A stretch of DNA of 64,000 bases. Source: Escherichia coli O127:H6 str. E2348/69. Its GTDB lineage: Bacteria; Pseudomonadota; Gammaproteobacteria; Enterobacterales; Enterobacteriaceae. The number at the start of each line of letters is the position of its first letter. Within the stretch, counting starts at the first letter, position 1. Made by a program: the position numbers. The DNA lies in NCBI RefSeq assembly GCF_000026545.1, contig NC_011601.1; one strand, written 5' to 3'. This document shows positions 12,001 to 15,000 of this stretch, one piece after another.

Positions 12001-15000
12001 TTGAACAAAATATCTCGGCACTGGCACTGGCCGCGCAGGTGATCCCTGGGCATATCATTCATATCACCTCTACGGTGCTGAATATCTTTGCCGTACTGAC
12101 TGCATTCTTTGGCATTTATCTCGGTTTCCACGAGGCCATTAAAGGCATTATTCTCAATCTGTTAAGCCGAATTATTGATACCAGGAAAATTAACTCACGC
12201 ATGCTGACTCTGGCGATCTGCGCTTTTATCGTCATTACGTTGACGATTTGGGTTTCGTTTCGTGTATCGGTGCTGGTGTTCTTTCAGTTGGGAAGCCCGT
12301 TATATGGCATTGTGTCGTGCCTCATTCCATTTTTCCTGATCTCTAAAGTTTCACAACTGAAAAAACTACGCGGGCTAAAAACATGGCTTATCCTGTTTTA
12401 TGGTATTTTGCTGTGCTTTTCGCCGCTATTGAAGCTGATTGAATAAAAGTAACGGGGGCTGCTCACAGCAGCCCCAGACGATGTCGATAGCATTGCAGCA
12501 CAGCCTGGATATGATCCTGAGTCATAAAGGACTGCTCATACGTTTCCATAACAATGGCATTTTCTTTACGTATATCCTGAAAGAGTTTTTCCAGCAATCT
12601 GGGCGCTAACCCCATTGATTCACCCAACAGCAAAAAGTCCTGCCCGATATACTCGCCATAATCACTGTGAAATCCAGGAGCCAGTTCCCGACCGCCTTCT
12701 TCTCGCGTCAATAACGGCAGCGCCAGATAGTTTGAGTAAAAATATTCCGGATAGGGAGCGACAGAAACAAAGTCATACACCGGCGCTAACGCAGGCGTCA
12801 AACCATCGGAGTACACTAAGCCAAAGTTTCGTAAATGCATGTCGTTATTACCCAGCAACCAGGCGTAAACAATGCGACGAAAGAGATCGATTTTAAATGC
12901 GATGTTGTCGTTAACATGGGCAACTAAAAATCGGGCCAGCGTTTCATAGCTGACATATTGTTCGTTATCATTCCCCGTTTTGCCATATTTATCTGTAATC
13001 TGCATCGCGCCATCAAGCTGTTCCTGATGCACTGGCAGCCCCTTGTTATCCCGGTCATAGCGCCGGATAACAAATGCGTATTCAAGCTCTTCCTCTGATT
13101 GTGGTGCAAAACTCAACAGGCCATGCACAGGTACGTCAAATCCCAAACGAGACATCAATGTCATTGTTGCGTGTTCATTTTCGGCCAAACCGGGAAAGTC
13201 GGCTGGAGAGGGCTTAAGGATAAAATTTCCCTGATGATCTACGACGCGGAACTCTCCTTCATCCAGCACTAATTGCAATTTGGGCTGGTAACCGGAAATA
13301 CTCATCCCTTTTTGTTGACGCGGAAGTTCCTGCACAAACTGAGTTCGCGTAAACCCCAGCCGAGGATTCAATTTTGCAGTGCCGCTCAGTCGCTTCAACC
13401 CCTGTGTCGAATATCCGCGCTGTTCGTCACGTTCATTCAACGGCGTTAACAGAATACGACAATTCGCCATTATTCCTCCCAAGGTAAAATCTGGATGGCC
13501 CCCAGCAGATTCTTGCCGTTATCAATAAGCATTCCCAGCAGATCGTTTTCGTCACGATGCTGTATCTGGCTGTAGCGTTGACGCAGCCATCCTTCTGGCG
13601 CCAGTGAGGCGAAATAAGGATGCAACGTCTCACTGGGAAACTGACGCTGTGCGACGGGCAGACTGATTGAGATTGCCGGTCCGTGGTAATCGTGGGCGTA
13701 CTGGAACAAAAAACCACTGTCGTTCTGAGAGAGTTCACCCACTACCTGACCATAGAGCAACACTTTCACTCGCCGATGCATAGTTTCACTCCAAGAACAT
13801 TCGCCACCGCGAACACACTGCCGAATTTAACCTGTTCAGGATCCTTAAAAAGTCGCTTTAACGTGGACGTTGAGATCCCCGTTTGTAGTTCAAGTGTGTA
13901 TAAATCAATGCCCAATTCTTTGCGACGTGCGTTCAGTTGTTCCCCCAAATGACGGGGAGTCTCAATGGTCAGGAGGGGGCGTGGTTGACTAATATTCGGC
14001 CCCTGAATAAGTTTCTTCTGCAACTCCTGGAGTTGGTCGCCGATCGCTTTCAACTCTTGAGCCAGATTTTGTGGTCCTGAGCAGATCATTAAAGAACCTT
14101 TCGATTGATAAAAGACAAAAACAAGATCATTTATGGTCAGATAAATTCGTTAAGTATCACAAATGAACCATTTTTCATTAATGGTTATAATTTAGCTCAT
14201 ATATAACTCATTGGCAAAGAAAAAGGTCAAAAAAGATACATAAATGATAGATAAAGCATAAAAAGGTCATATTTGACATGAGATCAGCATGAAAGCTGAT
14301 CTCATCGGGAGAGTTAAACAGCTGGCTTCTGCGGATTTTCATCCTGATCAACGGCAAAACAAGCTACCAGTTGACCGCCGTAGTCTTTTAGCTGCGGCTG
14401 CAACTGGGTGCAGGGGCCGAAGCGTCGACGACAGCGGGCGTTGAAGGCGCAGCCTGGCGGTGGATTCAGCGGGCTTGGCAGTTCACCGGTAAGTTTGATG
14501 CGTTCGCGACGATCGTCCGGGTTCAGGCGTGGTGTCGCGGAGAGCAGCGCCTGAGTGTACGGGTGGCGCGGGTTATTGAAGATTTGGTCCTTCGTCCCCT
14601 TCTCCACGCAGCGGCCCAGGTACATCACCATCACTTCATCAGCAATGTGCTCCACCACCGACAGATCGTGGGAGATAAAGACATAAGATAGCCCCAGTTC
14701 CTGCTGCAAATCCATCATCAGATTCAGCACCTGCGCACGCACTGAGACGTCCAGCGCGGAAACCGGCTCATCGGCAATCACCACATCCGGGTCGAGCATC
14801 AGACCTCGGGCAATGGCGATACGCTGACGCTGACCGCCGGAGAACATATGCGGATAGCGGTCATAATGCTCGGTTTTCAGGCCGACTTTCGCCATCATCG
14901 ACAGAGCTTTTTCCCGACGCTGTACTTTGCTTAAGCTGGTGTTGATCAGCAGCGGCTCTTCGAGAATCTGCCCAACTTTTTTACGCGGATTCAGCGAACC

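What the first reader, a model, noticed from the sequence alone, without database searches (positions are those of the whole stretch)
13466..13474. hipS stop and hipT start overlap in a TAATG junction (translational coupling), and hipB overlaps hipS by 16 nt
The sequence reads GGGAGGAATAATGGCG on the coding strand: the hipS TAA stop shares one base with the hipT ATG, with a strong SD inside the hipS 3' end. hipB and hipS also overlap (13766..13781). Tight coupling would fix the stoichiometry of toxin to antitoxin, as expected for a TA module.
Basis: seen in the sequence. Interest (0 to 1): 0.45.

Follow-up and report, generated by a model that had tools for sequence, protein, structure and literature searches.

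The report
Known hipBST operon overlapping gene junctions
The overlapping stop/start codons are really there, but they belong to the already characterised hipBST toxin-antitoxin operon of E. coli O127:H6, and the same overlaps and the same coupling idea were published in 2019, so this is an ordinary, known feature whose mechanism has still not been tested.

Summary
On the minus strand hipB (14089..13766), hipS (13781..13470) and hipT (13470..12463) overlap by 16 nt and 1 nt (TAATG at 13472..13468), with GGGAGG four bases before the hipT ATG. The window is 100% identical to E. coli O127:H6 E2348/69. HipS is identical to its chain in PDB 7AB3, and HipT is identical apart from that entry's engineered S57A change. 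Vang Nielsen et al. 2019 (PMC6581861) already report both overlaps and suggest translational coupling, so this is not new. I found no experimental test of coupling. In 75 related loci (HipT 30-96% identical), the hipS-hipT spacing lies within -17..+5 nt in 70, and it switches among -1, -4 and +2. The hipB-hipS overlap is exactly 16 nt in 58, although the stop codon varies (TAA/TAG/TGA). Shine-Dalgarno-like pairing is enriched at both starts. No masking RNA structure or internal promoter is predicted. hipS-to-hipT coupling by termination-reinitiation is therefore likely but may be only partial. Published synthetic data predict weaker coupling at -16. A -1 overlap is among the commonest operon junctions in E. 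coli.

The parts
13766..14089 (-). hipB, 107-aa HTH transcriptional repressor, first gene of the operon
   Evidence: ORF. Pfam HTH_3, E 6.5e-6. RefSeq CDS with the same boundaries. Repression of the hipBST promoter by HipB is reported in PMC10627512.
13470..13781 (-). hipS, 103-aa antitoxin resembling HipA N-subdomain 1
   Evidence: Pfam Couple_hipA, E 2.3e-22. Identical to PDB 7AB3 chain B. The start codon is conserved in 75 loci.
12463..13470 (-). hipT, 335-aa HipA-like Ser/Thr kinase toxin
   Evidence: Pfam HipA_C, E 3e-38. Identical to PDB 7AB3 chain C except that entry's engineered S57A. S57, S59, D210, H212 and D233 are invariant in the 21-sequence alignment.
13468..13472 (-). TAATG junction: hipS stop TAA and hipT start ATG share base 13470 (spacing -1)
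   Evidence: The same -1 configuration occurs in 18 of 75 related loci, -4 (ATGA) in 29 and +2 in 10.
13475..13480 (-). Shine-Dalgarno GGGAGG for hipT, encoded by the last HipS codons (W101-E102-E103), with a 4-nt spacer to the ATG
   Evidence: Anti-SD duplex -10.2 kcal/mol. Family median is -6.5 against an in-gene background of -1.7.
13766..13781 (-). 16-nt hipB/hipS overlap: hipS ATG to hipB TGA, with the hipB stop embedded in hipS codons 5-6 (GTG A)
   Evidence: The overlap is exactly 16 nt in 58 of 75 loci, with stops TAA 26, TAG 26, TGA 6. The third base of hipS codon 5 is A or G in 58 of 58.
13789..13792 (-). GGAG, SD-like motif for hipS inside the conserved Leu-Gly codons of hipB, with a 7-nt spacer to the ATG
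   Evidence: Duplex -5.9 kcal/mol. GG at -11/-10 is invariant and -9/-8 are mostly purines in 58 loci.
14189..14217 (-). Only sigma-70-like promoter match on the coding strand (TTGCCA-17-TAAATT), upstream of hipB
   Evidence: a consensus match only, and the number of matches found equals the shuffle expectation. A native promoter region upstream of hipB is reported active and HipB-repressed in PMC10627512.
12455..12475 (-). Terminator-like G+C-rich hairpin spanning the hipT stop codon, followed by a T-rich tail
   Evidence: 9 pairs, 7 of them G-C.

Best explanation
This is the chromosomal hipBST tripartite toxin-antitoxin operon of enteropathogenic E. coli O127:H6 E2348/69. Its order is HipB repressor, HipS antitoxin, HipT kinase toxin, and it is most likely made from one mRNA starting upstream of hipB. 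At the hipS/hipT junction (TAATG, spacing -1), a ribosome finishing hipS most likely re-initiates on the adjacent hipT AUG (termination-reinitiation). The GGGAGG motif encoded by the last HipS codons would help hold it there. Toxin synthesis would then be tied to prior synthesis of its antitoxin from the same mRNA, which suits the 2:2:2 HipBST complex. Because the SD is strong and not predicted to be masked, some independent initiation at hipT is also likely, so coupling is probably partial rather than strict. At the hipB/hipS junction (-16), the hipS AUG lies 13 nt upstream of the first base of the hipB stop codon. A terminating ribosome would have to move backwards to reach it. Coupling there is expected to be weaker, and ribosomes elongating on hipB and ribosomes initiating on hipS compete for the same RNA. 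What is shown: gene identities, overlaps, SD motifs, their conservation, and the absence of a predicted masking structure or internal promoter. What is inferred: the coupling itself and its strength.
For: Identity of the locus: 100% DNA identity to E2348/69, matching RefSeq gene boundaries, Pfam HTH_3 / Couple_hipA / HipA_C, and identity to PDB 7AB3 chains. Geometry: -1 spacing lies in the -4..+3 range where coupling is most efficient (PMC12548453), and 4 of 5 native overlapping E. coli pairs tested were coupled (PMC6728339). Conservation: the hipS-hipT distance lies within -17..+5 nt in 70 of 75 loci with HipT identity 30-96%, and it switches repeatedly among -1, -4 and +2, even within genera such as Rahnella. 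The distant Legionella hipBST has 4-bp overlaps at both junctions. SD pairing is enriched before hipT (median -6.5) and hipS (median -4.6) against a background of -1.7 kcal/mol. SD motifs promote reinitiation in E. coli. No sigma-70-like promoter match lies on the coding strand inside hipB or hipS. The products form a heterohexamer (PMC10627512), and short overlaps are enriched 4.5-fold among E. coli pairs encoding subunits of complexes (PMC10666635). The hipB stop position is held at -16 in 58 of 75 loci while its identity varies; the third base of hipS codon 5 is A or G in 58 of 58, against 32 of 58 at codon 7 (Fisher 8e-10).
Against: No experiment on native hipBST translation was found. Published constructs separate the genes and give each an optimised SD, or express hipT alone. 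Those results show each gene can be translated independently when given its own signals. No local RNA structure is predicted that would suppress de novo initiation at hipT: fold z = -0.35 and RBS accessibility at percentile 0.57 of its own mRNA. In the E. coli pairs studied by Huber et al., such structures were proposed to enforce strict coupling, and one overlapping pair (bioBF) was not coupled at all. The 75 loci share ancestry, so the counts are not independent events. Tight spacing could partly be a relic of the split of an ancestral hipA. The -16 spacing lies outside the -8..+10 range taken as predictive of reinitiation.
Confidence: 0.6

Rival explanations
1. Each gene is translated independently. 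Each cistron recruits free 30S subunits at its own SD, and the overlaps reflect only operon compaction, or the history of hipS and hipT as two halves of a split hipA, with no functional dependence of hipT translation on hipS translation.
For: The hipT SD is strong (-10.2 kcal/mol) and no masking structure is predicted. hipS and hipT are functional when expressed separately from engineered signals. The overlapping E. coli pair bioBF showed no coupling. Overlaps of 1 or 4 nt are very common and evolve easily.
Against: Near-zero spacing is maintained across five orders of Gammaproteobacteria while the exact configuration turns over. That pattern argues for selection on proximity rather than relic status. 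13 of 14 native overlapping pairs tested by Huber et al. were strictly coupled.
Confidence: 0.28
2. Coupling works by RNA unfolding. The hipT (or hipS) ribosome-binding site is sequestered in secondary structure, which ribosomes translating the upstream gene open, allowing new 30S subunits to bind.
For: This mechanism is established for other pairs such as f1 genes VII/IX and rpmI-rplT. The hipS RBS is slightly less accessible than average across the family (median percentile 0.39). In the window's minimum-energy fold, the hipS GGAGU pairs with downstream ACUCU.
Against: The junction folds are no more stable than shuffled sequence (z = -0.35 and +0.70). The hipT RBS is, if anything, more accessible than average across the family (median percentile 0.65). 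The centroid structures leave the hipT SD and AUG unpaired.
Confidence: 0.07
3. hipT is expressed from its own internal promoter within hipS or hipB, so its synthesis is uncoupled from hipS at the level of the transcript.
For: None found. The consensus scan is insensitive and covers only sigma-70-type sites.
Against: There is no promoter-like match on the coding strand between 14189 and 12463. A toxin-only transcript would be hazardous for the cell. The literature treats hipBST as one HipB-repressed operon.
Confidence: 0.04
4. A programmed frameshift at the SD-plus-stop junction fuses HipS to HipT into a HipA-like single chain.
For: An internal SD a few bases before a stop codon superficially recalls the prfB frameshift site (my own recollection, not tested here).
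Against: hipT is in the -1 frame relative to hipS, and there is no X XXY YYZ slippery heptamer in GGGAGGAATAA. The +1 frame leads to a short unrelated ORF (13433..13738). HipS and HipT crystallise as separate chains.
Confidence: 0.01

Closest known systems
hipBST of E. coli O127:H6 E2348/69 (Vang Nielsen et al. 2019, mBio, PMC6581861; Baerentsen et al. 2023, eLife, PMC10627512; PDB 7AB3-7AB5)
   Same: It is this very locus. DNA is 100% identical, the proteins match the crystallised chains, and the same 16-nt and 1-nt overlaps are reported together with the same coupling suggestion.
   Different: Nothing differs in the sequence. The survey of junction spacing, stop-codon turnover and SD strength across 75 loci was done here and does not appear in the HipBST papers I searched.
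hipBST of Legionella pneumophila (lpg2368-lpg2370; PMC9325769 and bioRxiv 10.1101/2022.11.26.518041)
   Same: It has the same three-gene order and the same split of HipA into HipS and HipT. Both of its junctions also overlap.
   Different: Both Legionella junctions are 4-bp overlaps rather than 16 nt and 1 nt. Its HipT matched the E. coli HipT with phmmer E 5e-26 over residues 14-258.
Native E. coli gene pairs coupled by termination-reinitiation (hyfHI, astDB, ydbH/ynbE, menDH; Huber et al. 2019 and 2023)
   Same: These are co-directional genes with short stop/start overlaps and an SD inside the upstream ORF. Their products are often subunits of one complex.
   Different: Those pairs overlap by 4 nt, and three of them have predicted structures that block de novo initiation. 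The hipS/hipT junction has -1 spacing and no predicted masking structure. The hipB/hipS junction at -16 lies outside the range those authors regard as predictive of coupling.
Canonical two-gene hipBA modules
   Same: The antitoxin/regulator gene precedes the kinase gene with a short overlap. PMC9325769 cites HipBA as an analogous overlapping TA system.
   Different: In hipBA the kinase is a single chain and HipB is the antitoxin. In hipBST the kinase N-subdomain is a separate gene product (HipS), which acts as the antitoxin.

Membership tests
HipBST tripartite toxin-antitoxin system | Three co-directional genes in the order HTH regulator (about 100 aa), HipA-N-subdomain-1-like protein (about 100 aa), N-terminally shortened HipA-like kinase (about 335 aa) | tested here: met
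   ORFs of 107, 103 and 335 aa. Pfam HTH_3, Couple_hipA and HipA_C. RefSeq annotation agrees.
HipBST tripartite toxin-antitoxin system | Sequence identity to the experimentally characterised HipS and HipT proteins | tested here: met
   HipS is identical to 7AB3 chain B. HipT is identical to 7AB3 chain C apart from the engineered S57A. DNA is 100% identical to E2348/69.
HipBST tripartite toxin-antitoxin system | Kinase motifs: Gly-rich loop serines S57 and S59, catalytic D210/H212/N215, and Mg-binding D233 | tested here: met
   All are present in the window protein and invariant in the 21-sequence alignment.
HipBST tripartite toxin-antitoxin system | HipT phosphorylates TrpS and arrests growth, HipS neutralises HipT, and HipB represses the promoter | not testable with these tools
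   These activities are reported for this exact locus in PMC6581861 and PMC10627512.
Translationally coupled gene pair (termination-reinitiation) | Co-directional genes with stop-to-start spacing of about -8 to +10 nt | tested here: met
   Met for hipS/hipT, which has -1 spacing. The range is as used in PMC10666635.
Translationally coupled gene pair (termination-reinitiation) | The same spacing criterion applied to hipB/hipS | tested here: not met
   The spacing is -16 nt. Coupling efficiency is reported to fall with increasing overlap and to be absent at -25 nt. Coupling is not excluded, but it is not predicted to be efficient.
Translationally coupled gene pair (termination-reinitiation) | SD motif for the downstream gene inside the upstream ORF | tested here: met
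   GGGAGG (-10.2 kcal/mol) precedes hipT and GGAG (-5.9 kcal/mol) precedes hipS. SD pairing is enriched across the family.
Translationally coupled gene pair (termination-reinitiation) | Both genes lie on one transcript, with no internal promoter or terminator | tested here: inconclusive
   There is no promoter-like match on the coding strand inside hipB or hipS. One weak 5-bp terminator-like hairpin lies at 13505..13491, but the number of such matches is near the shuffle expectation. No transcript mapping data were available.
Translationally coupled gene pair (termination-reinitiation) | Downstream translation depends on upstream translation reaching the junction | not testable with these tools
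   This requires reporter assays with premature stop codons. No such experiment was found in the HipBST papers.
Translationally coupled gene pair (termination-reinitiation) | [quoted passage not shown] | tested here: inconclusive
   No significant structure is predicted (z = -0.35 and +0.70) and RBS accessibility is average. These are predictions only.

The most novel reading that the evidence does not exclude
The exactly 16-nt hipB/hipS overlap may be a tuned translational device rather than a passive by-product of dual coding. It is held in 58 of 75 loci across several orders of Gammaproteobacteria, while the stop codon itself changes (TAA, TAG, TGA) and the SD sits in invariant Leu-Gly codons of HipB. 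By placing the hipB stop 13 nt past the hipS AUG, it could set a deliberately attenuated coupling, or a mutually exclusive ribosome-occupancy relationship, that fixes a HipB:HipS synthesis ratio different from the near 1:1 HipS:HipT link at the -1 junction.
Probability: 0.2. Interest if true: 0.35.

Novelty: already known. Interest (0 to 1): 0.12.

Why it matters
If coupling holds, HipT toxin would be made mainly on mRNAs that have just produced its antitoxin HipS. That would be a simple safety mechanism for a kinase that shuts down tryptophanyl-tRNA charging. It would also restore the one-to-one production of the two halves of an ancestrally single HipA protein. The idea is plausible and fits general knowledge of operons that encode complexes. 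However, it was published with the discovery of the system and concerns one of the commonest junction types in bacteria, so it changes little. The modest added value here is comparative. Near-zero hipS-hipT spacing and a fixed 16-nt hipB-hipS overlap are maintained across the family, which gives a concrete reason to run the missing coupling experiment.

Tried and rejected
1. Alternative hipT start at TTG 13482, which ORF listing offers. I rejected it because it lies upstream of the SD, whereas M1 is nearly invariant and the crystallised protein starts MANC.

2. Alternative hipS start at GTG codon 5, which would give a canonical GTGA 4-nt overlap with hipB. I rejected it because codon 5 is a possible start in only about 7 of 75 loci, whereas the upstream ATG/GTG/TTG is present in all of them.

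3. Masking RNA structure at either junction. None is more stable than shuffled sequence, and RBS accessibility is unremarkable.

4. Internal promoter. No match on the coding strand.

5. Frameshift fusion of HipS and HipT. There is no slippery site and the frame geometry is wrong for a +1 shift.

6. Greater conservation of the junctions than of the rest of the locus within E. coli. Both junction 61- and 71-mers fall in the >=99% identity band (effectively identical) in 147 of 160 carriers. With about 1% overall divergence this is close to expectation, so I drew no conclusion from it.

7. Literature search for a coupling experiment or a family-wide statement on the overlaps in five HipBST papers. 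I found only the 2019 sentence and the Legionella '4 bp' remarks.

8. Rfam scan. No RNA family matches in or next to hipBST.

Full report
**1. What is in the sequence**

Read on the minus strand, 13480..13465 is GGGAGGAATAATGGCG.
- The 103-codon ORF 13781..13470 ends in TAA at 13472..13470.
- The 335-codon ORF begins with ATG at 13470..13468, so the two share base 13470.
- GGAGG lies at 13479..13475, four bases before the ATG.
- The 107-codon ORF 14089..13766 ends in TGA at 13768..13766. That is 16 nt past the first base of the ATG of the next gene at 13781.

Every coordinate and the quoted string in the finding are correct.

**2. What the genes are**

- The 1.9-kb region is 100% identical to E. 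coli O127:H6 strain E2348/69. It occurs in 160 of 5,426 complete E. coli genomes, always on the chromosome.
- RefSeq annotates three CDSs with exactly these boundaries: an HTH protein, a HipA N-terminal domain protein and a HipA family toxin.
- Pfam gives HTH_3, Couple_hipA (E 2.3e-22) and HipA_C (E 3e-38).
- The second protein is identical to chain B of PDB 7AB3. The third is identical to chain C apart from that entry's engineered S57A change.
- This is therefore the experimentally characterised hipBST module. HipT phosphorylates TrpS, HipS is the antitoxin, and HipB is the repressor (PMC6581861; PMC10627512).

**3. Already published**

I found no test of the idea.
- The constructs described in the 2019 and 2023 papers separate the genes with optimised SDs, or express hipT alone with a GTG start.
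- Gerdes et al. 2021 do not mention overlaps at all.
- The two Legionella papers note only that each ORF there overlaps its neighbour by 4 bp.

**4. Is it more than chance?**

A -1 junction is ordinary.
- In E. coli the -4, -1 and -8 spacings are the most common of all, and 707 of 2,987 unidirectional pairs lie between -8 and +6 nt (PMC10666635).
- In the annotated part of this window I count five overlapping pairs among about 36 co-directional ones: xylH/xylG -23, yiaC/tag -4, dppD/dppF -4, hipB/hipS -16 and hipS/hipT -1.
- The -16 spacing is the less common type.

**5. Comparative test**

I used an alignment of 21 HipT homologues to fetch 79 loci from species-representative genomes. In each I located the hipS stop, the hipT start, the hipS start and the hipB stop, using tblastn plus in-frame stop and start scanning. 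The start assignments are robust because most loci offer only one candidate start codon.

*hipS to hipT spacing in 75 loci:*

| Spacing (nt) | Loci |
|---|---|
| -17 | 3 |
| -14 | 1 |
| -11 | 4 |
| -8 | 2 |
| -4 | 29 |
| -1 | 18 |
| +1 | 1 |
| +2 | 10 |
| +5 | 2 |
| +11 | 1 |
| +46 | 3 |
| +78 | 1 (probably a decayed copy) |

- 70 of 75 loci lie within -17..+5 nt.
- The configuration changes between and within genera: Rahnella has both ATGA and TAATG, and Buttiauxella has +2 and +5.
- This points to selection for proximity rather than for one particular sequence.

*hipB to hipS spacing:* -16 in 58 loci, -13 in 11 (mostly Pasteurellaceae), -8 in 2, -4 in 1, and three positive values (+7, +54, +55).

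Within the 58 loci of the -16 class:
- No two 66-nt junction sequences are identical, and there are 32 distinct 16-mers in the overlap.
- The hipB stop is TAA in 26, TAG in 26 and TGA in 6.
- The third base of hipS codon 5 is A in 52 and G in 6, never T or C. At the comparable hipS codon 7 the counts are G 26, T 17, C 9 and A 6 (Fisher 8e-10).
- A synonymous site of hipS is therefore constrained by the hipB stop.
- If the stop were lost, HipB would gain a median of 11 residues.
- The constraint may act on HipB length, on the termination position, or on both. I cannot separate these.

The loci share ancestry, so these counts are not independent events.

**6. Ribosome-binding signals**

- The predicted duplex with the 16S 3' end is -10.2 kcal/mol for hipT and -5.9 kcal/mol for hipS in the window.
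- Across the 75 loci the medians are -6.5 and -4.6 kcal/mol, against -1.7 kcal/mol at control positions inside hipT.
- The hipS SD lies in the invariant Leu-Gly codons of HipB: GG at -11/-10 is invariant and -9/-8 are mostly purines.
- The hipT SD is formed by the C-terminal Trp-Glu-Glu codons of HipS.

**7. Structure and promoters**

- The junction RNAs fold no better than shuffled controls (z = -0.35 for hipS/hipT; +0.70 for hipB/hipS).
- Local accessibility of the SD-AUG window sits at percentile 0.57 (hipT) and 0.44 (hipS) of the window's own mRNA.
- Across the family the hipT site is slightly more open than average (median percentile 0.65) and the hipS site slightly less (median 0.39).
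- The only promoter-like match on the coding strand is upstream of hipB (14217..14189). A G+C-rich hairpin spans the hipT stop.

**8. Mechanism**

The best reading is one HipB-repressed tricistronic mRNA.
- At TAATG, a ribosome terminating on hipS re-initiates on hipT with the help of the SD.
- This spacing lies within the -4..+3 range where coupling is most efficient.
- SD motifs promote reinitiation in E. coli, and 4 of 5 native overlapping E. coli pairs tested were coupled.
- Short overlaps are enriched 4.5-fold among pairs that encode subunits of complexes, and HipBST is a heterohexamer.

Two cautions apply.
- Strict coupling in E. coli is thought to need something that blocks de novo initiation at the internal SD. 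Nothing of that kind is predicted here, so coupling may be partial.
- At -16, synthetic-operon data show that coupling falls as overlap grows and vanishes by -25 nt. The hipB/hipS link is therefore probably weaker.

Confidence that hipT translation is at least partly coupled to hipS is about 0.6. Independent initiation is about 0.28. The RNA-unfolding, internal-promoter and frameshift-fusion readings are minor.

**9. Verdict**

The feature is a known property of a well-studied locus and an ordinary kind of operon junction. The one point that goes beyond the HipBST papers I searched is how strictly the 16-nt hipB/hipS overlap and the near-zero hipS/hipT spacing are kept across the family. That is a modest result, but it makes the missing reporter experiment worth doing.

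Noticed in passing
window 12448..14328: The hipBST-bearing segment (1,881 bp) replaces a 34-bp stretch between dppF and yhjV in E. coli genomes that lack it. That 34-bp stretch includes a small terminator-like hairpin. Only 160 of 5,426 complete genomes carry the segment. The last codons of dppF differ between the two forms (…ENPQKPAV* here, …ENPQR* at an empty site).
   Followed up: partly
window 14166..14186 (minus-strand promoter region of hipB): A perfect palindrome AACCATT-N7-AATGGTT lies immediately downstream of the -10-like TAAATT hexamer (14194..14189). It is a candidate HipB operator. The eLife paper shows HipB represses this promoter, but my term search of it found no mention of a mapped operator.
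   Followed up: no
window 14278..14305 and 14220..14229 / 14260..14269: An 11-bp perfect inverted repeat (ATGAGATCAGC/GCTGATCTCAT, 6-nt loop) lies just after the dppF stop. The 10-mer AAAAAGGTCA also occurs twice, 40 bp apart, in the dppF-hipB intergenic region. Their function is unknown; they could be a terminator or regulator-binding sites.
   Followed up: no
window 13487..13514 (minus strand): A hairpin (AGAAUCUG-CUGGGGGCCAUCCAG-AUUUU) appears in both the minimum-energy and the centroid folds. It ends about 7 nt upstream of the hipT SD and does not cover the SD. The terminator scan picks up its inner 5-bp stem at 13505..13491.
   Followed up: partly
window 10265..10330, 10748..10813, 9895..10018: Rfam finds two rdlD antitoxin RNAs, matching the two annotated Ldr type I toxin genes beside yhjV, and the Hfq-binding sRNA STnc490. 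hipBST therefore sits next to a cluster of type I toxin-antitoxin loci. An IS200C transposase gene lies just beyond them.
   Followed up: no
window 37771..38198 and 38481..38632: There is a full-length Rfam cspA thermoregulator hit (501 bits). The adjacent CDS is labelled cspE in the RefSeq record, although from its position next to hokA/sok and yiaG I would expect cspA. The sok antitoxin RNA is found beside hokA.
   Followed up: no
window 50197..50219; 31716..31719; 15324..15327: Other annotated co-directional overlaps in the window are xylH/xylG (23 nt), yiaC/tag (4 nt) and dppD/dppF (4 nt, ATGA).
   Followed up: partly
window about 32125..34276 and 30296..30998: bisC and yhjY are annotated as frameshifted pseudogenes in E2348/69.
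   Followed up: no
loci L057, L060, L079 (Psychromonas) and L070: These are exceptions to the tight hipS-hipT junction. Three Psychromonas loci have a 46-nt spacer. L070 (Candidatus Symbiopectobacterium) has +78 and +54 spacings and a TTG hipS start, which suggests a decaying copy.
   Followed up: no
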